A stretch of DNA of 64,000 bases from Eledone cirrhosa (GCA_964016885.1 OZ024745.1:7316001-7380000); one strand, 5' to 3'. Positions 22,545 to 64,000 are shown, counted from the first letter of the stretch. Made by a program: numbers and translations. The notes: generated from the letters alone by a model not told the origin.

Positions 22545-22663
22545 CTGAAGAGAAGAAAATTAGATTTGTTATCTAATGTAGAGACTTTTAAAACATTAGG
22601 ATAATTAAATACATCAGGATACAATTTTGACTATAAATCAATTCTTTATATATAAATATATAT

Positions 22664-22870
22664 AAAGAAGTTCCAAGAAATCCCAGTAGAAGGAAGACGT
22701 AATAGAGGAAGACCACGAAAAACATGGGCGGAGGTGGTGAGAGCAGACCTCAGATCGCTGAAGCTCATGGAGGAGATGACGAAGGACCATGACAAGTGGA
22801 GAGACGCTGTGCTGAATAGTACCTGTCCCACCCTTGCAAGCAGGGAAAAGCAGACGTAAAATGATGATGA
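22664..22870 (+). mobile_element. Severely 5'-truncated copy of the same RTE LINE family (3' ~200 bp)
   Basis: Highly similar to 3471-3680 (ccagtagaaggaagacg..gaggtggtgagagcagacctc..gacaagtggagaga..gcagggaaaagc.gacgtaaaatgatgatga). It is preceded by a TA-rich run. Confidence 0.9.
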
Positions 22871-22879
22871 AATATACAT

Positions 22880-23064
22880 ACATGAGGGTCGGCTGAAAAG
22901 TTCACAGGCTGACTATGCAGGATTCATGTGAAATCTTGCGTGCATTAATTTCAACTCATTAATAACTGCATTGTTTTTTTTTCCAAGGACTGTGTTGAAA
23001 AATAAACCTCATTCGGTTATTCTAAGAGAGTATCTTGGTCAATCTATGAACTATTGACTCCCGT
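22880..23064. mobile_element. Possible degenerate mariner-type MITE
   Basis: The left end atgagggtcggctgaaaagttcacag and the right end ctatgaactattgactcccgta form degenerate inverted termini resembling TACGAGGG-type mariner ends. Confidence 0.4.
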
Positions 23065-23441
23065 AAATATTTCTGAAGCTAGACATCAGAGTGGACGATA
23101 TGGAGTTATATAATTATCATCGATTGATCAGAACATTTATAATATTGATCTCTAAACACAGGCACAACTGGATTGAGAGAGCTGAACTGACAGAGTGCAA
23201 TTAAAAATGTGAAATTAACTAAGAATATGGTTGATAAACATAAAATGAAGTTTGCTCTACACCCTTGAAAATTGAGTAACTCAGTAGAATATAGGACAAG
23301 AAACTGTTGGTCTCTAGCATTTGAGCACTACATGTTAAACATTGGAGTGCCATGGAGGGCAGTAAACTTTCAAAATAGTTTATTTTCATCTGTGTTGATG
23401 TAGAGGGAAGAGATTTAACAATTATTCTGCATAAGAGAGAG

Positions 23442-26400
23442 ACCACACTATTGTAGACACTACCTCACTATTGTAGACACTACCACTGTTGTAGACACTA
23501 CCACTATTCTAGACACTACCACACTATTGTAGACACTACCACTATTCTAGACACTACCTCACTATTGTAGACACTACCTCACTATTGTAGACACTACCTC
23601 ACTATAGTAGACACTACCTCACTACTGTAGACACTACCTCACTATTGTAGACGCTACCACTGTTGTAGACACTACCTCACTACTGTAGACACTACCACAC
23701 TATTGTAGACACTACCCCACTACTGTAGACACTACCACACTATTGTAGACACTACCTCACTACTGTAGACACTACCTCACTATTGTAGACACTACCACAC
23801 TATTGTAGACACTAGCTCACTACTGTAGACACTACCACACTATTGTAGACACTACCACACTATTGTAGACACTACCACACTATTGTAGACACTACCACAC
23901 TATTGTAGACACTACCTCACTACTGTAGACACTACCTCACTATTGTAGACACTACCACACTACTGTAGACACTACCACACTATTGTAGACACTACCACAC
24001 TACTGTAGACACTACCACACTACTGTAGACACTACCACACTACTGTAGACACTACCACACTACTGTAGACACTACCACACTATTGTAGACACAATCTCAC
24101 TATTGTAGACACTACCACACTTGTAGACACTACCACACTATTGTAGACACTACCTCACGACTGTAGACACTACCACACTACTGTAGACACTACCACACTA
24201 CTGTAGACACTACCACACTACTGTAGACACTACCACACTACTATAGACACTACCACACTACTGTAAACACTACCACCCTATTGTAGACACTACCACACTA
24301 CTGTAGACACTACCTCACTACTGTAGACACTACCACACTATTGTATACACTACCACACTACTGTAGACACTACCACACTACTGTAGACACTACCACACTA
24401 TTGTAGACACTACCACACTACCACACTATTGTAGACACTACCTCACTACTGTAGACACTACCACACTATTGTAGACACTACCTACTACTGTAGACACTAC
24501 CACACTACCTCACTACTGTAGACACTACCACACTACTGTAGACACTACCACACTACTGTAGACACTACCACACTATTGTAGACACTACCTCACTACTGTA
24601 GACACTACCTCACTATTGTAGACACTACCTCACTATTGTAGACACTACCTCACTATTGTAGACACTACCACACTATTGTAGACACTACCTCACTATTGTA
24701 GACACTACCACACTACTGTAGACACTACCTCACTACTGTAGACACTACCACACTATTGTAGACACTACCACACTACTGTAGACACTACCTCACTATTGTA
24801 GACACTACCTCACTACTGTAGACACTACCTCACTACTGTAGACACTACCACACTACTGTAGACACTACCACACTATTGTAGACACTACCTCACTACTGTA
24901 GACACTACCTCACTACTGTAGACACTACCTCACTATTGTAGACACTACCACACTACTGTAGACACTAGCACACTACTGTAGACACTAGCACACTATTGTA
25001 GACACTACCTCACTACTGTAGACACTACCTCACTACTGTAGACACTACCTCACTACTGTAGACACTACCTCACTACTGTAGACACTAGCACACTACTGTA
25101 GACACTAGCACACTATTGTAGACACTACCTCACTACTGTAGACACTACCTCACTACTGTAGACACTACCTCACTACTGTAGACACTACCTCACTATTGTA
25201 GACACTACCACACTATTGTAGACACTACCACACTACTGTATACACTACCTCACTACTGTAGACACTACCTCACTACTGTGGACACTACCACATTACTGTA
25301 GACACTACAACACTACTGTAGACACTACCTCACTACTGTAGACACTACCACACTACCACACTATTGTAGACACTACCACACTATTGTAGACACTACCTCA
25401 CTACTGTAGACACTACCTCACTACTGTAGACACTACCACACTATTGTAGACACTACCTCACTACTGTAGACACTACCTCACTACTGTAGACACTACCACA
25501 CTATTGTAGACACTACCACACTATTGTAGACACTACCTCACTACTGTAGACACTACCTCACTACTGTAGACACTATCTCACTACTGTAGACACTACCTCA
25601 CTATTGTAGACACTACCTCACTACTGTAGACACTACCACACTACTGTAGCTACTACCACACTACTGTAGACACTACCACACTATTGTAGACACTACCACA
25701 CTATTGTAGACACTACCTCACTACTGTAGACACTACCACACTATTGTAGACACTACCTCACTACTGTAGCCACTACCTCACTACTGTAGACACTACCACA
25801 CTATTGTAGACACTACCTCACTACTGTAGACACTACCTCACTACTGTAGACACTACCTCACTACTGTAGACACTATCTCACTATTGTAAACACTACCTCA
25901 CTACTGTAGACACTACCTCACTACTGTAGACACTACCTCACTATTGTAGACACTACCTCACAATTGTAGACACTACCTCACAATTGTAGACACTACCACA
26001 CTACTGTAGACACTACCTCACTACTGTAGACACTACCACACTACTGTAGACACTACCACACTATTGTAGACACTACCACACTATTGTATACACTACCACA
26101 CTACTGTAGACACTACCACACTACTGTAGACACTACCTCACTATTGTAGACACTACCTCACTACTGTAGACACTACCTCACTACTGTAGACACTACCTCA
26201 CTACTGTAGCCACTACCTCACTACTGTAGACACTACCACACTACTGTAGACACTACCTCACTATTGTAGACACTACCACACTACTGTAGACACTACCACA
26301 CTACTGTAGACACTACCTCACTATTGTAGACACTACCTCACTATTGTAGACACTACCTCACTACTGTAGACACTACCTCACTACTGTAGACACTACCTCA

Positions 26401-29400
26401 CTACTGTAGACACTACCACACTACCACACTACTGTAGACACTGCCTCACTACTGTAGACACTACCACACTACTGTAGACACTACCTCACTACCACACTAC
26501 TGTAGACACTACCACACTACTGTAGACACTACCACATTACTGTAGACACTACCACATTACTGTAGACACTACCTCACTACTGTAGACACTACCTCACTAC
26601 TGTAGACACTACCTCACTACTGTAGACACTACCTCACTACTGTAGACACTACCACACTACTGTAGACACTACCTCACTACTGTAGACACTACCTCACTAC
26701 TGTAGACACTACCTCACTACTGTAGACACTACCTCACTACTGTAGACACTACCTCACTACTGTAGACACTACCTCACTACTGTAGACACTACCTCACTAC
26801 TGTAGACACTACCACACTATTGTAGACACTACCTCACTACTACACTACTGTAGACACCACCACACTACTGTAGACACTACCTCACTACTGTAGACACTAC
26901 CTCACTACTGTAGACACTACCTCACTACTGGAGACACTACCACACTACTGTAGCCACTACCACACTACTGTAGACACTACCTCACTATTGTAGACACTAC
27001 CTCACTATTGTAGACACTACCTCACTATTGTAGACACTACCACACTACTGTAGACACTACCACACTACTGTAGACACTACCTCACTATTGTAGACACTAC
27101 CACACTACTGTAGACACTACCACACTACTGTAGACACTACCACACTACTGTAGACACTACCTCACGACTAGACACTACCCCACTACTGTAGACACTACCA
27201 CACTATTGTAGACACTACCTCACTATTGTAGACACCACCTCACGACTGTAGACACTACCCCACTACTGTAGACACTACCACACTATTGTAGGCACTACCC
27301 CACTACTGTAGACACTACCCCACTACTGTAGACACTACCTCACTACTGTAGACACTACCTCACTACTGTAGACACTACCTCACTACTGTAGACACTACCA
27401 CACTACTGTAGACACTACCTCACTATTGTAGACACTACCTCACTATTGTAGACACTACCACACTACTGTAGACACTACCTCACTATTGTAGACACTACCA
27501 CACTATTGTAGACACTACCGCACTACTGTAGACACTACCTCACTACTGTAGACACTACCTCACTACCGTAGACACTACCTCACTATTGTAGACACTACCT
27601 CACTATTGTAGACACTACCTCACTATTGTAGACACTACCTCACTATTGTAGACACTACCTCACTACTGTAGACACTACCACACTACTGTAGACACTACCA
27701 CACTATTGTAGACACTACCTCACTATTGTAGACACTACCCCACTACTGTAGACACTACCTCACTACTGTAGACACTACCACACTACTGTAGACACTACCT
27801 CACTACTGTAGACACTACCTCACTACTGTAGACACTACCAGACTATTGTAGACACTACCACACTATTGTAGACACTACCACACTATTGTAGACACTACCT
27901 CACTATTGTAGACACTACCTCACTATTGTAGACACTACCTCACTATTGTAGACACTACCACACTACTGTAGACACTACCACACTATTGTATACTCTACCA
28001 CACTACTGTAGACACTACCACACTACTGTAGACACTACCACACTACTGTAGACACTACCTCACTACTGTAGACACTACCTCACTACTGTAGACACTACCT
28101 CACTACTGTAGACACTACCTCACTACTGTAGACACTACCTCACTACTGTAGACACTACCACACTATTGTAGACACTACCACACTATTGTAGACACTAGCA
28201 CACTATTGTAGACACTAGCACACTATTGTAGACACTACCTCACTACTGTAGACACTACCTCACTACTGTAGACACTACCTCACTACTCTAGACACTACCT
28301 CACTACTGTAGACACTACCTCACTACTGTAGACACTACCTCACTACTGTAGACACTACCACACTACTGTAGACACTACCACACTACTGTAGACACTAGCA
28401 CACTATTGTAGACACTACCACATTACTGTAGACACTACAGCACTACTGTAGACACTACCTCACTACTGTAGACACTACCTCACTACTGTAGACAATACCT
28501 CACTACTGTAGACAATACCACACTACTGTAGACACTACCTCACTACTGTAGACACTACCTCACTACTGTAGACACTACCTCACTACTGTAGACACTACCT
28601 CACTACTGTAGACACTACCTCACTATTGTAGACACTACCACACTATTGAAGACACTACCACACTATTGTAGACAATACCTCACTATTGTAGACACTACCT
28701 CACTATTGTAGACACTACCTCACTACTGTAGACACTACCTCACTACTGTAGACACTACCTCACTACTGTAGACACTACCACACTACTGTAGACACTACCA
28801 CACTACTGTAGACACTACCTCACTATTGTAGACACTACCTCACTATTGTAGACACTACCTCAATACTGTAGACACTACCACACTACTGTAGACACTACCT
28901 CACTACTGTAGACACTACCTCACTACTGTAGACACTACCACACTATTGTAGACACTACCTCACTACTGTAGACACTACCACACTACTGTAGACACTACCT
29001 CACTACTGTAGACACTACCACACTACTGTAGACACTACCTCACTACTGTAGACACTAGCACACTACTGTAGACACTACCTCACTATTGTAGACACCTCAC
29101 TACTGTAGACACTACCACACTACTGTAGACACTACCTCACTACTGTAGACACTACCTCACTACTGTAGACACTACCTCACTACTGTAGACACTACCTCAC
29201 TACTGTAGACACTACCTCACTACTCTAGACACTACCTCACTACTGTAGACACTACCACACTACTGTAGACACTACCTCACTACTGTAGACACTACCTCAC
29301 TACTGTAGACACTACCTCACTACTGTAGACACTACCTCACTACTGTAGACACTACCTCACTACTGTAGACACTACCTCACTACTGTAGACACTACCTCAC

Positions 29401-32400
29401 TATTGTAGACACTACCTCACTACTGTAGACACTACCTCACTATTGTAGACACTACCACACTACTGTAGACACTACCACACTACCTCACTATTGTAGACAC
29501 TACCACACTACTGTAGACACTACCACACTATTGTAGACACTACCACACTATTGTAGACACTACCTCACTATTGTAGACACTACCTCACGACTGTAGACAC
29601 TACCCCACTACTGTAGACACTACCACACTATTGTAGACACTACCTCACTATTGTAGACACCACCTCACGACTGTAGACACTACCCCACTACTGTAGACAC
29701 TACCACACTATTGTAGGCACTACCCCACTACTGTAGACACTACCACACTACTGTAGACACTACCACACTATTGTAGACACTACCTCACTACTGTAGACAC
29801 TACCTCACTACTGTAGACACTACCACACTACTGTAGACACTACCTCACTATTGTAGACACTACCTCACTATTATAGACACTACCACACTACTGTAGACAC
29901 TACCTCACTATTGTAGACACTACCACACTATTGTAGACACTACCTCACTACTGTAGACACTACCTCACTACCGTAGACACTACCACACTACTGTAGACAC
30001 TACCTCACTATTGTAGACACTACCTCACTATTGTAGACACTACCTCACTATTGTAGACACTACCTCACTATTGTAGACACTACCACACTACTGTAGACAC
30101 TACCACACTATTGTAGACACTACCTCACTATTGTAGACACTACCCCACTACTGTAGACACTACCTCACTACTGTAGACACTACCACACTACTGTAGACAC
30201 TACCTCACTACTGTAGACACTACCTCACTACTGTAGACACTACCTCACTACTGTAGACACTACCACACTATTGTAGACACTACCACACTATTGTAGACAC
30301 TACCACACTATTGTAGACACTACCGCACTATTGTAGACACTACCACACTACTGTAGACACTACCACACTATTGTATACACTACCACACTACTGTAGACAC
30401 TACCACACTACTATAGACACTACCACACTACTGTAGACACTAACACAGTACTGTAGACACTACCACACTACTGTAGACACTACCACACTATTGTATACAC
30501 TACCACACTACTGTAGACACTACCACACTACTATAGACACTACCACACTACTGTAGACACTACCACACTACTGTAGACACTACCACACTATTGTAGACAC
30601 TACCTCACTACTGTAGACACTACCTCACTACTGTAGACACTACCACACTACTGTAGACACTAGCACACTATTGTAGACACTACCTCACTACTGTAGACAC
30701 TACCTCACTACTCTAGACACTACCCCACTACTGTAGACACTACCTCACTACTGTAGACACTACCTCACTACTGTAGACACTACCACACTATTGTAGACAC
30801 TGCCACACTACTGTAGACACTAGCACACTATTGTAGACACTACCACATTACTGTAGACACTACAGCACTACTGTAGACACTACCTCACTACTGTAGACAC
30901 TACCTCACTACTGTAGACACTACCACACTACTGTAGACACTACCTCACTACTGTAGACACTACCTCACTACTGTAGACACTACCTCACTACTGTAGACAC
31001 TACCTCACTATTGTAGACACTACCACACTATTGTAGACACCACACTATTGTAGACACTATCTCACTACTGTAGACACTACCTCACTACTGTAGACACTAC
31101 CTCACTATTGTAGACACTACCACACTATTGTAGACACTACCACACTATTGTAGACAATACCTCACTATTGTAGACACTACCTCATTACTGTAGACACTAC
31201 CTCACTACTGTAGACACTACCTCACTACTGTAGACACTACCACACTACTGTAGCTACTACCACACTACTGTAGACACTACCACACTATTGTAGACACTAC
31301 CACACTATTGTAGACACTACCTCACTACCACACTATTGTAGACACTACCACACTATTGTAGACACTACCACACTATTGTAGACACTACCACACGACTGTA
31401 GACAATACCTCACTACTGTAGACACTACCACACTACCTCACTACTGTAGACACTACCTCACTACTGTAGACACTACCTCACTACTGTAGACACTACCTCA
31501 CTATTGTAGACACTACCACACTATTGTAGACAATACCACACTACTGTAGACACTACCTCACTACTGTAGACACTATCTCACTACTGTAGACACTACCACA
31601 CTATTGTAGACACTACTTCACTACTGTAGACACTACCTCACTATTGTAGACACTACCTCACTACTGTAGACACTACCTCACTATTGTAGACACTACCTCA
31701 CTACTGTAGACACTACCTCACTACTGTAGACAATACCTCACTACTGTAGACACTACCACACTACTGTAGACGCTACCACACTACTGTAGACACTACCACA
31801 CTATTGTAGACACTACCTCACTACTGTAGACACTACCTCACTACTGTAGACACTACCTCACTACTGTAGACACTACCTCACTACTGTAGACACTACCTCA
31901 CTATTGTAGACACTACCTCACTATTGTAGACACTACCTCACTATTGTAGACACTACCTCACTATTGTAGACACTACCACACTACTGTAGACACTACCTCA
32001 CTATTGTAGACACTACCTCACTACTGTAGACAATACCACACTATTGTAGACACTACCTCACTACTGTAGACACTACCTCACTACTGTAGACACTACCTCA
32101 CTACTGTAGACACTACCACACTACTGTAGCTACTACCACACTACTGTAGACACTACCACACTATTGTAGACACTACCACACTATTGTAGACACTACCTCA
32201 CTACCACACTATTGTAGACACTACCTCACTACCTCACTATTGTAGTCACTACCTCACTACTGTAGACACTACCACACTACTGTAGACACTATCACACTAC
32301 TGTAGACACTACCACACTACTGTAGACACTACCACACTACTGTAGACACTACCTCACTATTGTAGACACTACCTCACAATTGTAGACACTACCACACTAC

Positions 32401-35400
32401 TGTAGACACTACCTCACTATTGTAGACACTACCACACTACTGTAGACACTACCACACTACTGTAGACACTACCACACTACTGTAAACACTACCACACTAC
32501 TGTAGACACTACCACACTATTGTAGAAACTACCACACTACTGTAGACACTACCTCACTACTGTAGACACTACCACGCTACTGTAGACACTACCACGCTAC
32601 TGTAGACACTAGCTCACTATTGTAAACACTACCACACTACTGTAGACACTACCACACTACTGTAGACACTACCACATTACTGTAGACACTACCACATTAC
32701 TGTAGACACTACCTCACTACTGTAGACACTACCTCACTACTGTAGACACTACCTCACTACTGTAGACACTACCACACTACTGTAGACACTACCTCACTAT
32801 TGTAGACACTACTACACTATTGTAGACACTACCACACTATTGTAGACACTACCTCACTATTGTAGACACTACCTCACTACTGTAGACACTACCTCACTAT
32901 TGTAGACACTACCACACTACTGTAGACACTACCACACTACTGTAGACACTACCACACTACTGTAGACACTACCTCACTACTGTAGACACTACCTCACTAC
33001 TGTAGACACTACCACACTATTGTAGACACTACCTCACTACTGTAGACACTACCACACTACTGTAGACACTACCACACTACTGTAGACACTACCTCACTAC
33101 TGTAGACACTACCACACTATTGTAGACACTACCACACTATTGTAGACACTACCACACTATTGTAGACACTACCTCACTACTGTAGACACTACCTCACTAC
33201 TGTAGACACTACCTCACTACTGTAGACACTACCACACTACTGTAGACACTACCACACTATTGTAGACACTACCTCACTACTGTAGACACTACCACTCTAC
33301 TGTAGACACTACCTCACTACTGTAGACACTACCACACTATTGTAGACACTACCTCACTATTGTATTCACTACCACACTACTGTAGACACTACCTCACTAC
33401 TGTAGACACTACCACACTACTGTAGACACTACCACACTATTGTAGACACTACCTCACTACTGTAGACACTACCACACTATTGTAGACACTACCTCACTAT
33501 TGTATTCACTACCACACTACTGTAGACACTACCTCACTACTGTAGACACTACCACACTACTGTAGACACGACCACACTATTGTAGACACTACCTCACTAC
33601 TGTAGACACTACCTCACTACTGTAGACACTACCACACTACTACACTATTGTAGACACTACCTCACTACTGTAGACACTACCTCACTACTGTAGACACTAC
33701 CACACTATTGTAGACAATACCTCACTACTGTAGACACTACCACACTACTGTAGACACTACCACATTACTGTAGACACTACCACACTATTGTAGACACTAC
33801 CTCACTACTGTAGACACTACCACACTATTGTAGACACTACCACACTATTGTAGACACTACCTCACTACTGTAGACACTACCTCACTACTGTAGACACTAC
33901 CACACTATTGTAGACAATACCTCACTACTGTAGACACTACCACACTACTGTAGACACTACCACACTACTGTAGACACTACCACACTACCTCACTACTGTA
34001 GACACTACCTCACTACTGTAGACACTACCACACTATTGTAGACACTACCACACTATTGTAGACAATACCTCACTACTGCAGACACTACCACACTACTGTA
34101 GACACTACCTCACTACTGTAGACACTACCTCACTAGTGTAGACACTACCACACTATTGTAGACACTACCTCACTACTGTAGACACTACCACACTACTGTT
34201 GACACTACCACACTATTGTAGACACTACCTCACTAGTGTAGACACTACCACACTATTGTAGACACTACCTCACTACTGTAGACACTACCACACTACTGTA
34301 GACACTACCACACTACTGTAGACACTACCACACTATTGTAGACACTACTACACTATTGTAGACACTACCTCACTACTGTAGACACTACCTCACTACTGTA
34401 GACACTACCACACTATTGTAGACAATACCTCACTACTGTAGACACTACCACACTACTGTAGACACTACCACACTACCACACTACCTCACTACTGTAGACA
34501 CTACCTCACTACTGTAGACACTACCACACTATTGTAGACACTACCACACTATTGTAGACAATACCTCACTACTGCAGACACTACCACACTACTGTAGACA
34601 CTACCTCACTACTGTAGACACTACCTCACTACTGTAGACACTACCACACTACTGTAGACACTACCACACTACTGTAGACACTACCTCACTACTGTAGACA
34701 CTACCACACTATTGTAGACACTACCACACTATTGTAGACACTACCACACTATTGTAGACACTACCTCACTACTGTAGACACTACTTCACTACTGTAGACA
34801 CTACCTCACTACTGTAGACACTACCACACTATTGTAGACACTACCTCACTACTGTAGACACTACCACTCTACTGTAGACACTACCTCACTACTGTAGACA
34901 CTACCACACTATTGTATTCACTACCACACTACTGTAGACACTACCACACTATTGTAGACACTACCACACTATTGTAGACACTACCTCACTATTGTATACA
35001 CTACCACACTACTGTAGAAACTAGCACACTACCACACTACTGTAGACACTACCACACTATTGTAGACACTACCACACTATTGTAGACACTACCACACTAT
35101 TGTAGACACTACCTCACTACTGTAGACACTACCTCACTACTGTAGACACTACCACACTATTGTAGACAATACCTCACTACTGTAGACACTACCACACTAC
35201 TGTAGACACTACCACACTACTGTAGACACTACCACACTATTGTAGACACTACCTCACTACTGTAGACACTACCTCACTACTGTAGACACTACCTCACTAC
35301 TGTAGACACTACCACACTATTGTAGACACTACCTCACTACTGTAGACACTACCACTCTACTGTAGACACTACCTCACTACTGTAGACACTACCACACTAT

Positions 35401-38400
35401 TGTATTCACTACCACACTACTGTAGACACTACCACACTATTGTAGACACTACCACACTATTGTAGACACTACCTCACTATTGTATACACTACCACACTAC
35501 TGTAGAAACTAGCACACTACCACACTACTGTAGACACTACCACACTATTGTAGACACTACCACACTATTGTAGACACTACCACACTATTGTAGACACTAC
35601 CTCACTACTGTAGACACTACCTCACTACTGTAGACACTACCACACTATTGTAGACAATACCTCACTACTGTAGACACTACCACACTACTGTAGACACTAC
35701 CACACTACTGTAGACACTACCACACTATTGTAGACACTACCTCACTACTGTAGACACTACCTCACTACTGTAGACACTACCACACTATTGTAGACACTAC
35801 CACACTATTGTAGACAATACCTCACTACTGCAGACACTACCACACTACTGTAGACACTATCTCACTACTGTAGACACTACCTCACTACTGTAGACACTAC
35901 CACACTATTGTAGACACTACCTCACTACTGTAGACACTACCACACTACTGTAGACACTACCACACTACTGTAGACACTACCTCACTACGGTAGACACTAC
36001 CACACTATTGTAGACACTACCACACTATTGTAGACACTACCTCACTACTGTAGACACTACCTCACTACTGTAGACACTACCACACTATTGTAGACACTAC
36101 CTCACTACTGTAGACACTACCACTCTACTGTAGACACTACCTCACTACTGTAGACACTACCACACTATTGTAGACACTACCTCACTATTGTATTCACTAC
36201 CACACTACTGTAGACACTACCTCACTACTGTAGACACTACCACACTACTGTAGACACTACCACACTATTGTAGAAACTACCTCACTACTGTAGACACTAC
36301 CTCACTACTGTAGACACTACCACACTATTGTAGACACTACCTCACTATTGTATTCACTACCACACTACTGTAGACACTACCTCACTACTGTAGACAGTAC
36401 CACACTACTGTAGACACTACCACACTATTGTAGACACTACCTCACTACTGTAGACACTACCTCACTACTGTAGACACTACCACACTACTACACTATTGTA
36501 GACACTACCTCACTACTGTAGACACTACCTCACTACTGTAGACACTACCACACTATTGTAGACAATACCTCACTACTGTAGACACTACCACACTGCTGTA
36601 GACACTACCACACTACCTCACTACTGTAGACACTACCTCACTACTGTAGACACTACCACACTATTGTAGACACTACCACACTATTGTAGACAATACCTCA
36701 CTACTGCAGACACTACCACACTACTGTAGACACTACCTCACTACTGTAGACACTACCTCACTAGTGTAGACACTACCTCACTACTGTAGACACTACCACA
36801 CTACTGTAGACACTACCACACTACTGTAGACACTACCACACTACTGTAGACACTACCTCACTACTGTAGACACTACCACACTATTGTAGACACTACCACA
36901 CTATTGTAGACACTACCTCACTACTGTAGACACTACCTCACTACTGTAGACACTACCTCACTACTGTAGACACTACCTCACTACTGTAGACACTACCACT
37001 CTACTGTAGACACTACCTCACTACTGTAGACACCACCACACTATTGTAGACACTACCTCACTACTGTAGACAGTACCACTCTACTGTAGACACTACCTCA
37101 CTACTGTAGACACTACCACACTATTGTAGACACTACCACACTATTGTAGACACTACCTCACTATTGTATTCACTACCACACTACTGTAGACACTACCACA
37201 CTACTGTAGACACTACCTCACTACTGTAGACACTACCACACTACTGTAGACACTACCACACTATTGTAGACACTACCTCACTAGTGTAGACACTACCACA
37301 CTATTGTAGACACTACCTCACTACTGTAGACACTACCACACTACTGTAGACACTACGACACTACTGTAGACACTACCACACTACTGTAGACACTACCTCA
37401 CTACTGTAGACACTACCACACTATTGTAGACACTACCACACTATTGTAGACACTACCACACTATTGTAGACACTACCTCACTACTGTAGACACTACCTCA
37501 CTACTGTAGACACTACCTCACTACTGTAGACACTACCACTCTACTGTAGACACTACCTCACTACTGTAGACACTACCACACTATTGTAGACACTACCTCA
37601 CTACTGTAGACACTACCTCACTATTGTAGACACTACCACACTACTGTAGACACTACAACACTACTGTAGACACTACCTCACTATTGTAGACACTACCACA
37701 CTATTGTAGACACTACCACACTACTGTAGACACTACCACACTACTGTAGACACTACCACACTACTGTAGATACTACCACACTATTGTAGACACTACCCCA
37801 CTACTGTAGACACTACCACACTATCGTAGACACTACCTCACTAATGTAGACACTACCTCACTAATGTAGACACTACTACACTATTGTAGACACAACCTCA
37901 CTATTGTAGACACTACCACACTTCTAGACACTACCTCACTATTGTAGACACTACCACACTACTGTAGACACTACCACACTACTGTAGACACTACCACACT
38001 ATTGTATACACTACCACACTACTGTATACACTACCACACTACTATAGACACTACCACACTACTGTAGACACTACCACACTACTGTAGACACTACCACACT
38101 ATTGTAGACACTACCTCACTATTGTATACACTACCACACTACTGTAGACACTACCTCACTACTGTAGAAACTAGCACACTACCACACTATTATAGCCACT
38201 ACCTCACTACTGTAGACACTACCTCACTACTGTAGACACTACCACACTATTGTAGACACTACCTCACTATTGTATTCACTACCACACTACTGTAGACACT
38301 ACCTCACTACTGTAGACACTACCACACTACTGTAGACACTACCACACTACTGTAGACACTACCTCACTACTGTAGACACCACCTCACTACTGTAGACACT

Positions 38401-50400: not shown

Positions 50401-53400
50401 GACACTACCACACTACTGTAGACACTACCACACTATTGTAGACACTACCTCACTACTGTAGACACTACCTCACTACTGTAGACACTACCACACTATTGTA
50501 GACAATACCTCACTACTGTAGACACTACCACACTATTGTAGACACTACCTCACTACTGTAGACACTACCTCACTACTGTAGACACTACCTCACTACTGTA
50601 GACACTACCACTCTACTGTAGACACTACCTCACTACTGTAGACACTACCACACTATTGTAGACACTACCTCACTACTGTAGACAGTACCACTCTACTGTA
50701 GACACTACCTCACTACTGTAGACACTACCACACTATTGTAGACACTACCTCACTATTGTATTCACTACCACACTACTGTAGACACTACCACACTACTGTA
50801 GACACTACCTCACTACTGTAGACACTACCACACTACTGTAGACACTACCACACTATTGTAGACACTACCTCACTAGTGTAGACACTACCACACTATTGTA
50901 GACACTACCTCACTACTGTAGACACTACCACACTACTGTAGACACTACGACACTACTGTAGACACTACCACACTACTGTAGACACTACCTCACTACTGTA
51001 GACACTACCACACTATTGTAGACACTACCACACTATTGTAGACACTACCACACTATTGTAGACACTACCTCACTACTGTAGACACTACCTCACTACTGTA
51101 GACACTACCTCACTACTGTAGACACTACCTCACTACTGTAGACACTACCACCCTACTGTAGACACTACCTCACTACTGTAGACACTACCACACTATTGTA
51201 GACACTACCTCACTACTGTAGACACTACCTCACTATTGTAGACACTACCACACTACTGTAGACACTACAACACTACTGTAGACACTACCTCACTATTGTA
51301 GACACTACCACACTATTGTAGACACTACCACACTACTGTAGACACTACCACACTACTGTAGACACTACCACACTACTGTAGATACTACCACACTATTGTA
51401 GACACTACCCCACTACTGTAGACACTACCACACTATCGTAGACACTACCTCACTAATGTAGACACTACCTCACTAATGTAGACACTACTACACTATTGTA
51501 GACACAACCTCACTATTGTAGACACTACCACACTTCTAGACACTACCTCACTATTGTAGACACTACCACACTACTGTAGACACTACCACACTACTGTAGA
51601 CACTACCACACTATTGTATACACTACCACACTACTGTATACACTACCACACTACTATAGACACTACCACACTACTGTAGACACTACCACACTACTGTAGA
51701 CACTACCACACTATTGTAGACACTACCTCACTATTGTATACACTACCACACTACTGTAGACACTACCTCACTACTGTAGAAACTAGCACACTACCACACT
51801 ATTATAGCCACTACCTCACTACTGTAGACACTACCTCACTACTGTAGACACTACCACACTATTGTAGACACTACCTCACTATTGTATTCACTACCACACT
51901 ACTGTAGACACTACCTCACTACTGTAGACACTACCACACTACTGTAGACACTACCTCACTACTGTAGACACCACCTCACTACTGTAGACACTACCACACT
52001 ATTGTAGACAATACCTCACTACTGTAGACACTACCACACTACTGTAGACACTACCACACTACTGTAGACACTACCACACTACTGTAGACACTACCACACT
52101 ATTGTAGACACTACCACACTATTGTAGACACTACCTCACTACTGTAGACACTACCTCACTACTGTAGACACTACCACACTATTGTAGACAATACCTCACT
52201 ACTGTAGACACTACCACACTACTGTAGACACTACCACACTACTGTAGACACTACCACACTATTGTAGACACTACCTCACTACTGTAGACACTACCTCACT
52301 ACTGTAGACACTACCACACTATTGTAGACACTACCTCACTATTGTATTCACTACCACACTACTGTAGACACTACCTCACTACTGTAGACACTACCACACT
52401 ACTGTAGACACTACCACACTACCTCACTACTGTAGACACTACCTCACTACTGTAGACACTACCACACTATTGTAGACACTACCACACTATTGTAGACAAT
52501 ACCTCACTACTGCAGACACTACCACACTACTGTAGACACTACCTCACTACTGTAGACACTACCTCACTAGTGTAGACACTACCACACTATTGTAGACACT
52601 ACCTCACTACTGTAGACACTACCACACTACTGTAGACACTACCACACTACTGTAGACACTACCACACTACTGTAGACACTACCTCACTACTGTAGACACT
52701 ACCACACTATTGTAGACACTACCACACTATTGTAGACACTACCACACTATTGTAGACACTACCTCACTACTGTAGACACTACCTCACTACTGTAGACACT
52801 ACCTCACTACTGTAGACACTACCTCACTACTGTAGACACTACCACTCTACTGTAGACACTACCTCACTACTGTAGACACTACCACACTATTGTAGACACT
52901 ACCTCACTACTGTAGACACTACCTCACTACTGTAGACACTACCACACTATTGTAGACACTACCACACTATTGTAGACACTACCTCACTATTGTATTCACT
53001 ACCACACTACTGTAGACACTACCTCACTACTGTAGACACTACCACACTACTGTAGACACTACCACACTATTGTAGACACTACCTCACTACTGTAGACACT
53101 ACCTCACTACTGTAGACACTACCACACTATTGTAGACACTACCTCACTATTGTATTCACTACCACACTACTGTAGACACTACCTCACTACTGTAGACACT
53201 ACCACACTACTGTAGACACTACCACACTATTGTAGACACTACCTCACTACTGTAGACACTACCTCACTACTATAGACACTACCTCACTACTGTAGACACT
53301 ACCACACTACTGTAGACACTACCACACTATTGTAGACACTACCTCACTACTGTAGACACTACCACACTATTGTAGACAATACCTCACTACTGTAGACACT

Positions 53401-56400
53401 ACCACACTACTGTAGACACTACCACACTATTGTAGACACTACCTCACTACTGTAGACACTACCTCACTACTGTAGACACTACCACACTATTGTAGACAAT
53501 ACCTCACTACTGTAGACACTACCTCACTACTGTAGACACTATCTCACTAATGTAGACACTACCTCACTACTGTAGACACTACCACACTATTGTAGACACT
53601 ACCACACTACTGTAGACACTACCACACTATTGTATACACTACCACACTACTGTAGACACTACCACACTATTGTAGACACTACCTCACTATTGTATTCACT
53701 ACCACACTACTGTAGACACTACCTCACTACTGTAGACACTACCACACTACTGTAGACACTACCTCACTACTGTAGACACCACCTCACTACTGTAGACACT
53801 ACCACACTATTGTAGACAATACCTCACTACTGTAGACACTACCACACTACTGTAGACACTACCACACTACTGTAGACACTACCACACTACTGTAGACACT
53901 ACCACACTATTGTAGACACTACCACACTATTGTAGACACTACCTCACTACTGTAGACACTACCTCACTACTGTAGACACTACCACACTATTGTAGACAAT
54001 ACCTCACTACTGTAGACACTACCACACTACTGTAGACACTACCACACTACTGTAGACACTACCACACTATTGTAGACACTACCTCACTACTGTAGACACT
54101 ACCTCACTACTGTAGACACTACCACACTATTGTAGACACTACCTCACTATTGTATTCACTACCACACTACTGTAGACACTACCTCACTACTGTAGACACT
54201 ACCACACTACTGTAGACACTACCACACTACCTCACTACTGTAGACACTACCTCACTACTGTAGACACTACCACACTATTGTAGACACTACCACACTATTG
54301 TAGACAATACCTCACTACTGCAGACACTACCACACTACTGTAGACACTACCTCACTACTGTAGACACTACCTCACTAGTGTAGACACTACCACACTATTG
54401 TAGACACTACCTCACTACTGTTGACACTACCACACTACTGTAGACACTACCACACTACTGTAGACACTACCACACTACTGTAGACACTACCTCACTACTG
54501 TAGACACTACCACACTATTGTAGACACTACCACACTATTGTAGACACTACCACACTATTGTAGACACTACCTCACTACTGTAGACACTACCTCACTACTG
54601 TAGACACTACCTCACTACTGTAGACACTACCACTCTACTGTAGACACTACCTCACTACTGTAGACACTACCACACTATTGTAGACACTACCTCACTACTG
54701 TAGACACTACCTCACTACTGTAGACACTACCACACTATTGTAGACACTACCACACTATTGTAGACACTACCTCACTATTGTATTCACTACCACACTACTG
54801 TAGACACTACCTCACTACTGTAGACACTACCACACTACTGTAGACACTACCACACTATTGTAGACACTACCTCACTACTGTAGACACTACCTCACTACTG
54901 TAGACACTACCACACTATTGTAGACACTACCTCACTATTGTATTCACTACCACACTACTGTAGACACTACCTCACTACTGTAGACACTACCACACTACTG
55001 TAGACACTACCACACTATTGTAGACACTACCTCACTACTGTAGACACTACCTCACTACTATAGACACTACCTCACTACTGTAGACACTACCACACTACTG
55101 TAGACACTACCACACTATTGTAGACACTACCTCACTACTGTAGACACTACCACACTATTGTAGACAATACCTCACTACTGTAGACACTACCACACTACTG
55201 TAGACACTACCACACTATTGTAGACACTACCTCACTACTGTAGACACTACCTCACTACTGTAGACACTACCACACTATTGTAGACAATACCTCACTACTG
55301 TAGACACTACCTCACTACTGTAGACACTATCTCACTAATGTAGACACTACCTCACTACTGTAGACACTACCACACTATTGTAGACACTACCACACTACTG
55401 TAGACACTACCACACTATTGTATACACTACCACACTACTGTAGACACTACCACACTACTATAGACACTACCACACTACTGTAGACACTACCACACTACCG
55501 TAGACACTACCACACTATTGTAGACACTACCACACTACCTCACTACTGTAGACACTACCTCACTACTGTAGACACTACCACACTATTGTAGACACTACCT
55601 CACTACTGTAGACACTACCACTCTACTGTAGACGCTACCTCACTACTGTAGACACTACCTCACTATTGTATTCACTACCACACTACTGTAGACACTACCA
55701 CACTACTGTAGACACTACCACACTATTGTAGACACTACCTCACTACTGTAGACACTACCTCACTACTGTAGACACTACCACACTATTGTAGACAATACCT
55801 CACTACTGTAGACACTACCACACTATTGTAGACAATACCTCACTACTGTAGACACTACCTCACTACTGTAGACACTACCTCACTACTGTAGACACTACCA
55901 CACTACTGTAGACACTACCACACTACTGTAGACACTACCTCACTATTGTAGACACTACCACACTACTGTAGACACTACCAAACTACTGTAGACACTACCT
56001 CACTACTGTCGACACTACCACACTACTGTAGACACTACCTCACTACTGTCGACACTACCACACTACTGTAGACACTACCACACTACTGTAGACACTACCA
56101 CACTACTGTAGACACTACCTCACTACTGTAGACACTACCACACTACTGTAGACACTACATCACTATTGTAGACACTACCACACTACTGTAGACACTACCA
56201 CACTATTGTAGACACTACCTCACTACTGTAGACACTACCTCACTACTATAGACACTACCTCACTACTGTAGACACTACCACACTACTGTAGACACTACCA
56301 CACTATTGTAGACACTACCTCACTACTGTAGACACTACCACACTATTGTAGACAATACCTCACTACTGTAGACACTACCACACTACTGTAGACACTACCA

Positions 56401-59400
56401 CACTATTGTAGACACTACCTCACTACTGTAGACACTACCTTACTACTGTAGACACTACCACACTATTGTAGACAATACCTCACTACTGTAGACACTACCT
56501 CACTACTGTAGACACTATCTCACTAATGTAGACACTACCTCACTACTGTAGACACTACCACACTATTGTAGACACTACCACACTACTGTAGACACTACCA
56601 CACTATTGTATACACTACCACACTACTGTAGACACTACCACACTATTGTAGACACTACCTCACTATTGTATTCACTACCACACTACTGTAGACACTACCT
56701 CACTACTGTAGACACTACCACACTACTGTAGACACTACCTCACTACTGTAGACACCACCTCACTACTGTAGACACTACCACACTATTGTAGACAATACCT
56801 CACTACTGTAGACACTACCACACTACTGTAGACACTACCACACTACTGTAGACACTACCACACTACTGTAGATACTACCACACTATTGTAGACACTACCA
56901 CACTATTGTAGACACTACCTCACTACTGTAGACACTACCTCACTACTGTAGACACTACCACACTATTGTAGACAATACCTCACTACTGTAGACACTACCA
57001 CACTACTGTAGACACTACCACACTACTGTAGACACTACCACACTACTGTAGACACTACCACACTATTGTAGACACTACCTCACTACTGTAGACACTACCT
57101 CACTACTGTAGACACTACCACACTATTGTAGACACTACCTCACTACTGTAGACACTACCACACTACTGTAGACACTACCACACTACTGTAGACACTACCA
57201 CACTACTGTAGACACTACCTCACTACTGTAGACACTACCACACTATTGTAGACACTACCACACTATTGTAGACACTACCACACTATTGTAGACACTACCT
57301 CACTACTGTAGACACTACCTCACTACTGTAGACACTACCTCACTACTGTAGACACTACCACTCTACTGTAGACACTACCTCACTACTGTAGACACTACCA
57401 CACTATTGTAGACACTACCTCACTACTGTAGACACTACCTCACTACTGTAGACACTACCACACTATTGTAGACACTACCACACTATTGTAGACACTACCT
57501 CACTATTGTATTCACTACCACACTACTGTAGACACTACCTCACTACTGTAGACACTACCACACTACTGTAGACACTACCACACTATTGTAGACACTACCT
57601 CACTACTGTAGACACTACCTCACTACTGTAGACACTACCACACTATTGTAGACACTACCTCACTATTGTATTCACTACCACACTACTGTAGACACTACCT
57701 CACTACTGTAGACACTACCACACTACTGTAGACACTACCACACTATTGTAGACACTACCTCACTACTGTAGACACTACCTCACTACTATAGACACTACCT
57801 CACTACTGTAGACACTACCACACTACTGTAGACACTACCACACTATTGTAGACACTACCTCACTACTGTAGACACTACCACACTATTGTAGACAATACCT
57901 CACTACTGTAGACACTACCACACTACTGTAGACACTACCACACTATTGTAGACACTACCTCACTACTGTAGACACTACCTCACTACTGTAGACACTACCA
58001 CACTATTGTAGACAATACCTCACTACTGTAGACACTACCTCACTACTGTAGACACTATCTCACTAATGTAGACACTACCTCACTACTGTAGACACTACCA
58101 CACTATTGTAGACACTACCACACTACTGTAGACACTACCACACTATTGTATACACTACCACACTACTGTATACACTACCACACTACTATAGACACTACCA
58201 CACTACTGTAGACACTACCACACTACCGTAGACACTACCACACTATTGTAGACACTACCACACTACCTCACTACTGTAGACACTACCTCACTACTGTAGA
58301 CACTACCACACTATTGTAGACACTACCTCACTACTGTAGACACTACCACTCTACTGTAGACGCTACCTCACTACTGTAGACACTACCTCACTATTGTATT
58401 CACTACCACACTACTGTAGACACTACCACACTACTGTAGACACTACCACACTATTGTAGACACTACCTCACTACTGTAGACACTACCTCACTACTGTAGA
58501 CACTACCACACTATTGTAGACAATACCTCACTACTGTAGACACTACCACACTATTGTAGACACTACCACACTATTGTAGACAATACCTCACTACTGTAGA
58601 CACTACCTCACTACTGTAGACACTACCTCACTACTGTAGACACTACCACACTACTGTAGACACTACCACACTACTGTAGACACTACCTCACTATTGTAGA
58701 CACTACCACACTACTGTAGACACTACCATACTACTGTAGACACTACCTCACTACTGTCGACACTACCACACTACTGTAGACACTACCTCACTACTGTCGA
58801 CACTACCACACTACTGTAGACACTACCACACTACTGTAGACACTACCACACTACTGTAGACACTACCTCACTACTGTAGACACTACCACACTACTGTAGA
58901 CACTACATCACTATTGTAGACACTACCACACTACTGTAGACACTACCTCACTACTGTAGACACTACGACACTACTGTAGACACTACCACACTATTGTAGA
59001 CACTACCTCACTACTGTAGACACTACCACACTACTGTAGACACTACCACACTACTGTAGACACTACCACACTATTGTAGACAATACCACATTACTGTAGA
59101 CACTACCACACTATTGTAGACACTACCTCACTATTGTAGACACTACCACACTATCGTAGACACTACCACACTATCGTAGACACTACCTCACTAATGTAGA
59201 CACTACCACACTATTGTAGACACTACCTCACTATTGTAGACACTACCACACTACTGTAGACACTACCACACTACTGTAGACACTACGACACTACTGTAGA
59301 CACTACCACACTATTGTAGACACTACCACACTATTGTAGACACTACCTCACTACTGTAGACACTACCTCACTACTGTAGACACTACCACACTATTGTAGA

Positions 59401-62400
59401 CAATACCTCACTACTGTAGACACTACCACACTACTGTAGACACTACCACACTACTGTAGACACTACCACACTATTGTAGACACTACCTCACTACTGTAGA
59501 CACTACCTCACTACTGTAGACACTACCACACTATTGTAGACACTACCACACTATTGTAGACACAACCTCACTATTGTAGACACTACCACACTTCTAGACA
59601 CTACCACACTTCTAGACACTACCTCACTATTGTAGACACTACCACACTACTGTAGACACTACCACACTACTGTAGACACTACCACACTACTGTAGACACT
59701 ACCACACTATTGTATACACTACCACACTACTGTAGACACTACCACACTACTGTAGACACTACCACACTATTGTAGACACTACCTCACTATTGTATACACT
59801 ACCACACTACTGTAGAAACTAGCACACTACCACACTACTGTAGACACTACCACACTATTGTAGACACTACCACACTATTGTAGACACTACCTCACTACTG
59901 TAGACACTACCTCACTACTGTAGACACTACCTCACTACTGTAGACACTACCACACTATTGTAGACAATACCTCACTACTGTAGACACTACCACACTACTG
60001 TAGACACTACCACACTACTGTAGACACTACCACACTATTGTAGACACTACCTCACTACTGTAGACACTACCTCACTACTGTAGACACTACCACACTATTG
60101 TAGACACTACCACACTATTGTAGACAATACCTCACTACTGCAGACACTACCACACTACTGTAGACACTATCTCACTACTGTAGACACTACCTCACTACTG
60201 TAGACACTACCACACTATTGTAGACACTACCTCACTACTGTAGACACTACCACACTACTGTAGACACTACCACACTACTGTAGACACTACCTCACTACGG
60301 TAGACACTACCACACTATTGTAGACACTACCACACTATTGTAGACACTACCTCACTACTGTAGACACTACCTCACTACTGTAGACACTACCACACTATTG
60401 TAGACACTACCTCACTACTGTAGACACTACCACTCTACTGTAGACACTACCTCACTACTGTAGACACTACCACACTATTGTAGACACTACCTCACTATTG
60501 TATTCACTACCACACTACTGTAGACACTACCTCACTACTGTAGACACTACCACACTACTGTAGACACTACCACACTATTGTAGAAACTACCTCACTACTG
60601 TAGACACTACCTCACTACTGTAGACACTACCACACTATTGTAGACACTACCTCACTATTGTATTCACTACCACACTACTGTAGACACTACCTCACTACTG
60701 TAGACAGTACCACACTACTGTAGACACTACCACACTATTGTAGACACTACCTCACTACTGTAGACACTACCTCACTACTGTAGACACTACCACACTACTA
60801 CACTATTGTAGACACTACCTCACTACAGTAGACACTACCTCACTACTGTAGACACTACCACACTATTGTAGACAATACCTCACTACTGTAGACACTACCA
60901 CACTGCTGTAGACACTACCACACTACCTCACTACTGTAGACACTACCTCACTACTGTAGACACTACCACACTATTGTAGACACTACCACACTATTGTAGA
61001 CAATACCTCACTACTGCAGACACTACCACACTACTGTAGACACTACCTCACTACTGTAGACACTACCTCACTAGTGTAGACACTACCACACTATTGCAGA
61101 CACTACCTCACTACTGTAGACACTACCACACTACTGTAGACACTACCACACTACTGTAGACACTACCACACTACTGTAGACACTACCTCACTACTGTAGA
61201 CACTACCACACTATTGTAGACACTACCACACTATTGTAGACACTACCTCACTACTGTAGACACTACCTCACTACTGTAGACACTACCTCACTACTGTAGA
61301 CACTACCACTCTACTGTAGACACTACCTCACTACTGTAGACACTACCACACTATTGTAGACACTACCTCACTACTGTAGACAGTACCACTCTACTGTAGA
61401 CACTACCTCACTACTGTAGACACTACCACACTATTGTAGACACTACCACACTATTGTAGACACTACCTCACTATTGTATTCACTACCACACTACTGTAGA
61501 CACTACCACACTACTGTAGACACTACCTCACTACTGTAGACACTACCACACTACTGTAGACACTACCACACTATTGTAGACACTACCTCACTAGTGTAGA
61601 CACTACCACACTATTGTAGACACTACCTCACTACTGTAGACACTACCACACTACTGTAGACACTACCACACTACTGTAGACACTACCTCACTACTGTAGA
61701 CACTACCACACTATTGTAGACACTACCACACTATTGTAGACACTACCACACTATTGTAGACACTACCTCACTACTGTAGACACTACCTCACTACTGTAGA
61801 CACTACCTCACTACTGTAGACACTACCACTCTACTGTAGACACTACCTCACTACTGTAGACACTACCACACTATTGTAGACACTACCTCACTACTGTAGA
61901 CACTACCTCACTATTGTAGACACTACCACACTACTGTAGACACTACAACACTACTGTAGACACTACCTCACTATTGTAGACACTACCACACTATTGTAGA
62001 CACTACCACACTACTGTAGACACTACCACACTACTGTAGACACTACCACACTACTGTATACACTACCACACTACTGTAGACACTACCACACTATCGTAGA
62101 CACTACCTCACTAATGTAGACACTACTACACTATTGTAGACACAACCTCACTATTGTAGACACTACCACACTTCTAGACACTACCTCACTATTGTAGACA
62201 CTACCACACTACTGTAGACACTACCACACTACTGTAGACACTACCACACTACTGTAGACACTACCACACTACTGTATACACTACCACACTACTATAGACA
62301 CTACCACACTACTGTAGACACTACCACACTATTGTAGACACTACCTCACTATTGTATACACTACCACACTACTGTAGACACTACCTCACTACTGTAGAAA

Positions 62401-64000
62401 CTAGCACACTACCACACTATTATAGCCACTACCTCACTACTGTAGACACTACCTCACTACTGTAGACACTACCACACTATTGTAGACACTACCTCACTAT
62501 TGTAGACACTACCTCACTATTGTATTCACTACCACACTACTGTAGACACTACCTCACTACTGTAGACACTACCACACTACTGTAGACACTACCTCACTAC
62601 TGTAGACACCACCTCACTACTGTAGACACTACCACACTATTGTAGACAATACCTCACTACTGTAGACACTACCACACTACTGTAGACACTACCACACTAC
62701 TGTAGACACTACCACACTACTGTAGACACTACCACACTACTGTAGACACTACCACACTATTGTAGACACTACCTCACTACTGTAGACACTACCTCACTAC
62801 TGTAGACACTACCACACTATTGTAGACAATACCTCACTACTGTAGACACTACCACACTACTGTAGACACTACCACACTATTGTAGACACTACCACACTAT
62901 TGTAGACACTACCTCACTACTGTAGTCACTACCTCACTACTGTAGACACTACCACACTATTGTAGACACTACCTCACTATTGTATTCACTACCACACTAC
63001 TGTAGACACTACCTCACTACTGTAGACACTACCACACTACTGTAGACACTACCACACTACCTCACTACTGTAGACACTACCTCACTACTGTAGACACTAC
63101 CACACTATTGTAGACACTACCACACTATTGTAGACAATACCTCACTACTGCAGACACTACCACACTACTGTAGACACTACCTCACTACTGTAGACACTAC
63201 CTCACTAGTGTAGACACTACCACACTATTGTAGACACTACCTCACTACTGTAGACACTACCACACTACTGTAGACACTACCACACTACTGTAGACACTAC
63301 CACACTACTGTAGACACTACCTCACTACTGTAGACACTACCACACTATTGTAGACACTACCACACTATTGTAGACACTACCACACTACTGTAGACACTAC
63401 CTCACTACTGTAGACACTACCTCACTACTGTAGACACTACCTCACTACTGTAGACACTACCACTCTACTGTAGACACTACCTCACTACTGTAGACACTAC
63501 CACACTATTGTAGACACTACCTCACTACTGTAGACACTACCTCACTACTGTAGACACTACCACACTATTGTAGACACTACCACACTATTGTAGACACTAC
63601 CACACTATTGTAGACACTACCTCACTATTGTATTCACTACCACACTACTGTAGACACTACCTCACTACTGTAGACACTACCACACTACTGTAGACACTAC
63701 CACACTATTGTAGACACTACCTCACTACTGTAGACACTACCTCACTACTGTAGACACTACCACACTATTGTAGACACTACCTCACTATTGTATTCACTAC
63801 CACACTACTGTAGACACTACCTCACTACTGTAGACACTACCACACTACTGTAGACACTACCACACTATTGTAGACACTACCTCACTACTGTAGACACTAC
63901 CTCACTACTATAGACACTACCTCACTACTGTAGACACTACCACACTACTGTAGACACTACCACACTATTGTAGACACTACCTCACTACTGTAGACACTAC
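23442..64000. repeat. 20-bp satellite array CACTA[C/T]TGTAGACACTACC[A/T], over 40.5 kb (about 2,000 monomers), continuing past the window end
   Basis: Uninterrupted tandem array with two high-frequency variable positions, rare diagnostic variants and occasional 8-, 17- and 18-bp units. TAG codons on both strands cycle through all frames, so there are no ORFs. Confidence 0.99.

What the first reader, a model, noticed from the sequence alone, without database searches (positions are those of the whole stretch)
22545..64000. Satellite block of over 40 kb apparently inside an intron of Axin
Seen: the most 5' Axin exon here (22401-22544) starts at a phase-2 acceptor, and the satellite begins about 900 bp further upstream in transcript orientation. 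Established: Axin has N-terminal tankyrase-binding, RGS, GSK3-binding and beta-catenin-binding regions, none of which appear in the window. Inference: Pol II must cross more than 40 kb of pure satellite in a dosage-sensitive Wnt regulator, whose other introns here are only 0.12-1.85 kb. This recalls satellite-filled giant introns such as those of Drosophila Y fertility genes. Possible consequences are intron delay, heterochromatin effects or length-polymorphic expression.
Basis: partly seen in the sequence, partly recalled or inferred. Interest (0 to 1): 0.75.

Follow-up and report, generated by a model that had tools for sequence, protein, structure and literature searches.

The report
95-kb minisatellite inside octopus Axin intron
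A 20-base repeat copied about 4,700 times, and found as an array nowhere else in the genome, fills 95 kb of one intron of the only, intact Axin gene of an octopus and a transcript-like sequence joins the exons on either side; repeat blocks this large are common in this genome, so it likely grew in place and is likely tolerated rather than a regulatory device.

Summary
Confirmed and extended. The array (20-bp unit, about 4,719 copies) runs 95,075 bp without a gap, 54 kb past the window end. It lies in coding intron 5 (112,809 bp, GT..AG, phase 2) of the single Axin gene: 10 coding exons, 992 aa, 97% identical to Octopus axin. A 3,678-nt contig from a public run joins exon 5 directly to exon 6 across the array, so the 3' exons are no orphan. 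The repeat is locus-private (3,726 of 3,727 genome matches) and built of nested 3-19 kb duplications, as expected from in-place expansion. It is not exceptional here: 8 of 80 random 8-kb stretches are filled by one array, and 3 of those still show their repeat about 45 kb away on both sides. Exact length, allele variation, chromatin and any effect on expression are untested. The scan noted the same pattern before in other genes of this genome (TBK1, SLC22, LHPP, VPS15). Verdict: real; likely tolerated giant intronic minisatellite.

The parts
23442..64000 (.). 20-bp minisatellite array, part inside the window. It continues 54.5 kb beyond the window (whole array C5:7,339,442-7,434,516; 95,075 bp, about 4,719 units). 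Four main unit variants make up about 75% of units; nested higher-order duplications.
22545..64000 (-). Axin coding intron 5, part inside the window. Whole intron 112,809 bp (C5:7,451,353-7,338,545), GTAAGT..CAG, phase 2; 84% array, with 16.8 kb of non-array DNA on the 5' side and 897 bp on the 3' side. Coding exons 1-5 lie beyond the window: exon 5 with the beta-catenin-binding motif at C5:7,452,027-7,451,354; exons 4, 3 and 2 at 7,452,773-7,452,627, 7,453,682-7,453,571 and 7,477,433-7,477,287; exon 1 with start codon and RGS at 7,507,725-7,506,707.
   Evidence: junction seen in a spliced contig
22401..22544 (-). Axin coding exon 6 (144 bp)
20281..20550 (-). Axin coding exon 7 (270 bp)
   Evidence: joined to exon 6 in the contig (located)
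19737..19889 (-). Axin coding exon 8 (153 bp)
19431..19613 (-). Axin coding exon 9, first half of the DIX domain
18175..18304 (-). Axin coding exon 10, second half of DIX and stop codon

Best explanation
The block is a single-locus 20-bp minisatellite of 95 kb inside intron 5 of the only, intact Axin gene, whose exons 5 and 6 are joined in a spliced contig; it likely grew in place by repeated duplication of multi-kilobase segments and is likely tolerated filler, one of many such arrays in this genome, rather than a selected regulator. Shown: position, gene integrity, exon join, single locus, nested internal duplications, commonness of such arrays. Inferred: growth by unequal exchange or replication-based duplication; RNA polymerase II reading straight through; splicing succeeding because the sense strand of the array offers no polypyrimidine acceptor, no AATAAA and no recursive site while the true splice sites lie in non-array DNA 16.8 kb and 0.9 kb away; weak selection on intron length.
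For: Gene model of 10 exons, all nine introns GT..AG, 992 aa with no internal stop, 966 of 999 residues identical to Octopus axin. All 10 genome matches to the protein are at this locus (stricter first look, so weak matches may be missing). Run X4 holds one 3,678-nt contig that covers only exon 6 of the stretch laid, with loose ends equal to the end of exon 5 and the start of exon 7; DNA-like run X2 crosses the acceptor unspliced. Genome matches inside the array: 486 of 486 (39-mer), 3,527 of 3,527 (25-mer), 3,726 of 3,727 (17-mer). Exact internal duplications of 5,044, 4,417, 4,083 and 3,343 bp; recurring spacings of about 3, 5.3-5.6, 8 and 19 kb; two homogenised domains with their own variants and more singleton units at the left edge and between the domains. 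8 of 80 random 8-kb stretches are at least 95% one array (95% CI 4-19%); 3 of these 8 show the same repeat at all four probes 20 and 45 kb away on both sides, 3 more at two or three probes; none shares 15-mers with the Axin array. Sense strand of the array: 0 AATAAA, 0 Y8-AG acceptors, 0 AG|GTRAG sites.
Against: No long reads or optical map could be laid on the array, and its far edge was not checked with reads, so 95 kb rests on the assembly. Short-read contig depth on the array edge (39,889 against about 16 on unique flanks) shows high copy number but is uncalibrated: my simulation for 95 kb gave 265,000-528,000 under its first settings, 7-13 times more than seen, and anything from 20 to 483,000 as seed and length rules were varied. 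X4 comes from another sample than the DNA-like runs and its library is not on record, so the spliced contig is not shown to come from a 95-kb allele. Neutrality itself was not tested: no allele, expression or chromatin data. The absence of splice and polyA motifs is expected by chance for a 20-bp unit; the sense strand does hold 2,237 GTRAG words.
Confidence: 0.75

Rival explanations
1. The array is real and intronic but the assembler mis-sized it, for example by duplicating near-identical 5-11 kb higher-order units or merging two alleles, so the true array is much shorter.
For: Exact duplicated stretches of up to 5,044 bp cluster just beyond the window end, about 42-59 kb into the array. Observed edge depth is 7-13 times below the first simulation for 95 kb.
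Against: No N from the window start to beyond exon 1. 99.9% of 5-kb words in the array are unique, so long reads could resolve it. Distinct variant domains are not what simple over-assembly makes. The left junction is carried by a 488-bp contig with no difference that runs 30 bp into the array. The simulated depth brackets the observed value once tool settings are varied.
Confidence: 0.12
2. The array is a length-dependent modulator of Axin: it delays or dampens transcription of a dosage-sensitive Wnt inhibitor, and its alleles shift Wnt output.
For: At an assumed 1-3 kb/min (recalled range, not measured in octopus) the array would add 32-95 min and more than double transit of the coding span. 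Long alleles of the human intronic VNTR TRACT are associated with lower CACNA1C expression in fibroblasts and testis (PMC13131567, abstract). Axin being limiting in the destruction complex is recalled. The sense strand is G-skewed (33% G, 10% C), which would favour R-loops (inference).
Against: Equally large arrays with unrelated units are scattered over the genome. A delay changes response time, not steady-state level, unless polymerase drops off. The array is CpG-poor (1.2 per kb against 21 per kb in the 5' non-array part of the intron), so DNA methylation has little substrate. Its RNA hairpin is no better than that of shuffled-unit tandems (160 of 300 as stable).
Confidence: 0.1
3. It is a Drosophila Y-loop-like gene: satellite intron gigantism under a dedicated transcription and splicing programme that acts as a developmental timer.
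For: Small exons around a repeat-filled intron over 100 kb resemble the fly genes in layout (PMC6508613; PMC11207136 abstract).
Against: The fly genes exceed 4 Mb with introns over 99% of the span, are Y-linked and are transcribed in spermatocytes. Here the coding span is 174 kb, one intron is affected, the unit is private, and Axin is a general Wnt scaffold.
Confidence: 0.03

Closest known systems
TRACT, the 30-bp intronic VNTR of human CACNA1C (PMC13131567; abstract and section 12 read)
   Same: Single-locus intronic minisatellite in an important gene, made of a few unit variants that differ by one base and expanded in place to many kilobases.
   Different: TRACT is 3-30+ kb and is modelled as growing through perfect tracts. 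This array is 95 kb and shows multi-kilobase higher-order duplications. Allele lengths and expression effects are known for TRACT and unknown here.
Drosophila Y-loop fertility genes kl-3 and kl-5, satellite intron gigantism (PMC6508613, part 1 of 2 read; PMC11207136, abstract and outline)
   Same: Polymerase has to cross long intronic tandem repeat between small exons.
   Different: Those are megabase, Y-linked spermatocyte genes that need Blanks and Heph, with giant size conserved among species. This is one 113-kb intron in a general signalling gene, with a private unit and no shown special programme.
Axin / Axin-1 of Octopus vulgaris, O. sinensis and O. bimaculoides (P0001, P0032)
   Same: 96.7-96.8% identical protein with collinear RGS, beta-catenin-binding and DIX regions.
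   Different: The orthologous intron lengths in those species could not be read here.

Membership tests
Axin | RGS, beta-catenin-binding motif and C-terminal DIX in one reading frame | tested here: met
   PF00615, PF08833 and PF00778 hits in order on one strand; open 992-aa frame
Axin | Tankyrase-binding N-terminus and GSK3-binding helix | tested here: inconclusive
   PF16646 on the 97%-identical orthologue P0001: E 3.2e-5, under the curated cut-off; the GSK3 site was not tested separately
Minisatellite VNTR | Head-to-tail unit of 10-100 bp with interspersed unit variants | tested here: met
   20-bp unit; 4,583 of 4,710 parsed units are 20 bp; 180 variants
Minisatellite VNTR | Single locus with non-array flanks | tested here: met
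   3,726 of 3,727 17-mer matches lie in the array
Minisatellite VNTR | Copy number varies among alleles or individuals | not testable with these tools
   Only one assembly; no long reads available
Classical satellite DNA | Array of tens to hundreds of kb with higher-order structure | tested here: met
   95 kb with nested 3-19 kb duplications
Classical satellite DNA | Family shared among many loci | tested here: not met
   No second array in the assembly
Classical satellite DNA | Constitutive heterochromatin (H3K9me3) | not testable with these tools
   No chromatin data
Drosophila Y-loop intron gigantism | Megabase gene with introns over 99% of the span | tested here: not met
   Coding span 173.6 kb, longest intron 112.8 kb against over 4 Mb
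Drosophila Y-loop intron gigantism | Sex-chromosome linkage and germline-restricted expression | not tested
   Neither sex linkage of C5 nor the tissue of run X4 was determined
Drosophila Y-loop intron gigantism | Giant size conserved across related species | tested here: inconclusive
   A relative's run covered the flanks but not the array edge; absence of cover in contigs is only a hint
Drosophila Y-loop intron gigantism | Need for dedicated RNA-binding factors (Blanks, Heph) | not testable with these tools
   Needs genetics

The most novel reading that the evidence does not exclude
In this octopod, private minisatellites routinely balloon to 50-100+ kb inside ordinary essential genes, a genome-wide form of intron gigantism. 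At Axin the 95-kb array is a young, length-polymorphic element whose alleles set the timing or dose of a limiting Wnt inhibitor, which would make it a natural test of intron delay.
Probability: 0.1. Interest if true: 0.7.

Novelty: new member of a known kind. Interest (0 to 1): 0.3.

Why it matters
As a single case it is a large but ordinary intronic minisatellite. Its value is as a clean example: a conserved, single-copy Wnt scaffold keeps an intact frame and exact splicing around 95 kb of tandem repeat. Roughly 4% of the sampled scaffolds (3 of 80 stretches) may lie in arrays of about this size, each with its own unit. That makes this genome a good place to ask how long transcribed repeats are tolerated and whether their length alleles act on expression. 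If Axin output tracked array length, it would be a rare natural test of intron delay in a dosage-sensitive pathway.

Tried and rejected
1) Orphan duplicate or mis-placed 3' exons: rejected. The other DIX hits are elsewhere; the one translated reads like the N-terminus of Dishevelled (name recalled). 2) Hidden exon in intron 5: none needed, since residue 706 of the orthologue spans the junction. 3) Sizing the array from short-read contigs: uncalibrated. 4) State in relatives: run X5 (organism B, about 92% alike in the flanking intron) covered the flanks but had depth 0 on the 57-bp array edge at 85% likeness; runs X6 and X8 (organism C) barely covered the flanks. Absence of cover is only a hint of lineage-specific growth. 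5) RNA hairpin: z -4.5 against dinucleotide shuffles vanished against the proper control of shuffled units repeated in tandem (160 of 300 as stable as the real array). 6) Recursive splice sites: no YAG|GTRAG in the array or in the 5' non-array part of the intron. 7) let-7 sponge: the sites are on the strand opposite to Axin (see noticed in passing). 8) No RNA holder was listed by record; X4 was recognised as transcript-like only from its spliced contig. 9) My first automatic exon snapping gave a broken frame; this was a script fault, corrected by reading the junctions by hand. 10) Literature: nine searches. No listing among describes this array or giant intronic minisatellites in octopods; only titles and abstract starts were seen, the library lacks most subscription papers, and no supplements were opened. 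11) Look-alike search among the scan's other genomes found 0 windows.

Full report
OBSERVATION. The window is G000:C5:7,316,001-7,380,000 of a 3.0-Gb assembly. TRF finds one array from 23442 to the window end, period 20, 91% matches. I fetched the next 200 kb. The array ends at C5:7,434,516: 95,075 bp, about 4,719 units, no N, longest gap between unit cores 38 bp.

THE GENE. The beta-catenin-binding motif PF08833 has one match in the genome, on the same strand 17 kb beyond the array. The best RGS match lies 55 kb further on. The beta-catenin exon retrieves Octopus axin at 97% identity, so the organism is an octopod. All 10 genome matches to that 999-aa protein are at this locus and in order (one search used a stricter first look). 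The model has 10 coding exons, nine GT..AG introns of 29,273, 23,604, 797, 599, 112,809, 1,850, 391, 123 and 1,126 bp, and a 992-aa frame with no internal stop, 966 of 999 residues identical to P0001. The array is 84% of intron 5.

SPLICING. Run X4 (same species label, another sample, library not on record) has one contig of 3,678 nt that lies only on exon 6 of the stretch 21930-22620. Its loose letters beyond 22544 match the 3' end of exon 5 exactly (C5:7,451,354-7,451,383), and those before 22399 match the start of exon 7. Run X2 crosses the same stretch unspliced. The exons flanking the array are therefore joined in a transcript-like sequence. Only 30 letters are shown on each side. The contig length would fit the whole 2,979-nt coding sequence plus UTRs (inference). 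It is not shown that this transcript came from a 95-kb allele.

THE REPEAT. It is private to the locus: 486 of 486, 3,527 of 3,527 and 3,726 of 3,727 exact genome matches of 39-, 25- and 17-letter patterns fall in the array; the one outside is a lone hit on C2. Four one-base variants make up about three quarters of 4,710 parsed units. Variant strings recur at about 3, 5.3-5.6, 8 and 19 kb, with exact duplications up to 5,044 bp. Counting on from the window's coordinates, a central domain (about 33-88 kb) and a right domain (about 94-118 kb) each have their own marker variants, and singleton units concentrate at the left edge and between the domains. This layering is what successive segmental duplication inside an array would leave (inference). 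The sense strand is 33% G and 10% C, has no AATAAA, no polypyrimidine acceptor and no AG|GTRAG, but has 2,237 GTRAG words. It is CpG-poor (1.2 per kb). Its RNA hairpin is not better than that of shuffled-unit tandems.

IS THE LENGTH REAL? The scaffold has no gap across the gene. 99.9% of 5-kb words in the array are unique. A 488-bp contig of run X1 with no difference runs 30 bp into the left edge, and summed contig depth on the edge is 39,889 against about 16 on unique flanks. That depth cannot size the array: my simulation for 95 kb gave 265,000-528,000 at first and 20-483,000 across plausible tool settings. The right edge was not checked with reads. A many-kilobase array is well supported; the exact 95 kb rests on the assembly.

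IS IT UNUSUAL HERE? Earlier notes of this scan claimed many such arrays in this genome (unreviewed), so I tested the abundance. I drew 80 length-weighted random 8-kb stretches from 19 large scaffolds (2.53 Gb). 8 of 80 are at least 95% one tandem array (95% CI 4-19%), and 14% of sampled bases lie in arrays of 1 kb or more with period 7 or more. Probes 20 and 45 kb to each side found the same repeat at all four places for 3 of the 8, at three places for 2, at two places for 1, and nowhere for 2; probes show identity at points, not continuity. Of 19 fixed-position 10-kb stretches, 2 were filled, and one of these held at all four probes. None shares 15-mers with the Axin array. So about 4% of the sampled scaffolds, near 95 Mb, may lie in arrays of about 100 kb or more, probably hundreds of arrays (inference). 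I did not test whether my sampled arrays are intronic; the earlier notes report that for TBK1, SLC22, ANKRD26-like, LHPP and VPS15 genes.

HOW IT MOST LIKELY WORKS. A short minisatellite in an already long intron likely expanded by repeated unequal exchange or replication-based duplication (inferred). Polymerase II would read through it (inferred from the exon join and gene order). The intron is removed at canonical sites in non-array DNA 16.8 kb and 0.9 kb from the array (sites and join shown). The likely cost is transit time: 32-95 min extra at an assumed 1-3 kb/min (rate recalled). Confidence 0.75. Rivals: mis-sized assembly 0.12, length-dependent regulator 0.10, Y-loop-like programme 0.03.

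COMPARISON. The closest case is human TRACT in CACNA1C, a 3-30+ kb single-locus intronic VNTR of one-base variants whose long alleles go with lower expression in two tissues (PMC13131567, abstract and section 12). The array works like such a VNTR at three times the size; copy-number variation, the defining feature, could not be tested. It is not a member of the Drosophila Y-loop class: those genes exceed 4 Mb, are Y-linked, are transcribed in spermatocytes and need Blanks and Heph (PMC11207136 abstract; PMC6508613 part 1 of 2). In O. bimaculoides, methylated CpGs are concentrated in gene bodies and are somewhat higher in satellites (PMC9476566, passages), but this array has few CpGs. My searches listed no paper on this array or on giant intronic minisatellites of octopods (listings only, open-access library, no supplements opened).

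VERDICT. Observation confirmed; interpretation partly supported; new member of a known kind; interest 0.3. The bolder reading, that array length tunes Axin dose within a genome-wide habit of private-minisatellite intron gigantism, is not excluded (probability 0.1, interest 0.7 if true).

Noticed in passing
window 23442-64000 and the rest of the array to C5:7,434,516: 1,945 places on the + strand read CTACCTCA, the 8-mer complement of the seed of this genome's own let-7 (C17:38,314,816-38,314,894). The Axin sense strand thus carries the first nine letters of let-7, not its target site; only an antisense transcript could act as a sponge. 376 of 200,000 shuffled units carry the site and 0 of 11 other sampled arrays do. 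With dozens of conserved seeds and many arrays, chance is likely.
   Followed up: partly
C5:7,444,775-7,445,900; 7,461,744-7,462,970; 7,463,250-7,468,265; 7,519,192-7,529,220; 7,536,194-7,541,617: Other minisatellites with different units (19, 51, 32, 46 and 44 bp; 1-10 kb) lie in Axin introns 5 and 2 and upstream of exon 1. The 95-kb array looks like the long tail of a local size range.
   Followed up: partly
C5:7,499,880-7,502,108 and 7,493,281-7,495,394 (Axin intron 1): Two LINE-like reverse-transcriptase frames (743 and 377 aa) in the sense direction of Axin; the LINE label is by eye.
   Followed up: no
window 1-1329, - strand: Open frame of 443 aa with a weak RVT_1 match (E 3.3e-4, under the cut-off); it looks like a Penelope-type retroelement (label recalled).
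   Followed up: partly
window 10040-10631: 54-bp minisatellite, 11 copies, 98% matches, downstream of the Axin gene.
   Followed up: no
G000 C1-C4: Four scaffolds of 379-443 Mb, about twice the longest contigs listed for Octopus axin records (193-216 Mb). This suggests chromosome fusions or a different octopod karyotype.
   Followed up: no
C5:7,562,985-7,571,525: 6.7-kb (TA)n tract next to the only assembly gap (200 N) in the 264 kb read, about 63 kb upstream of Axin exon 1.
   Followed up: no
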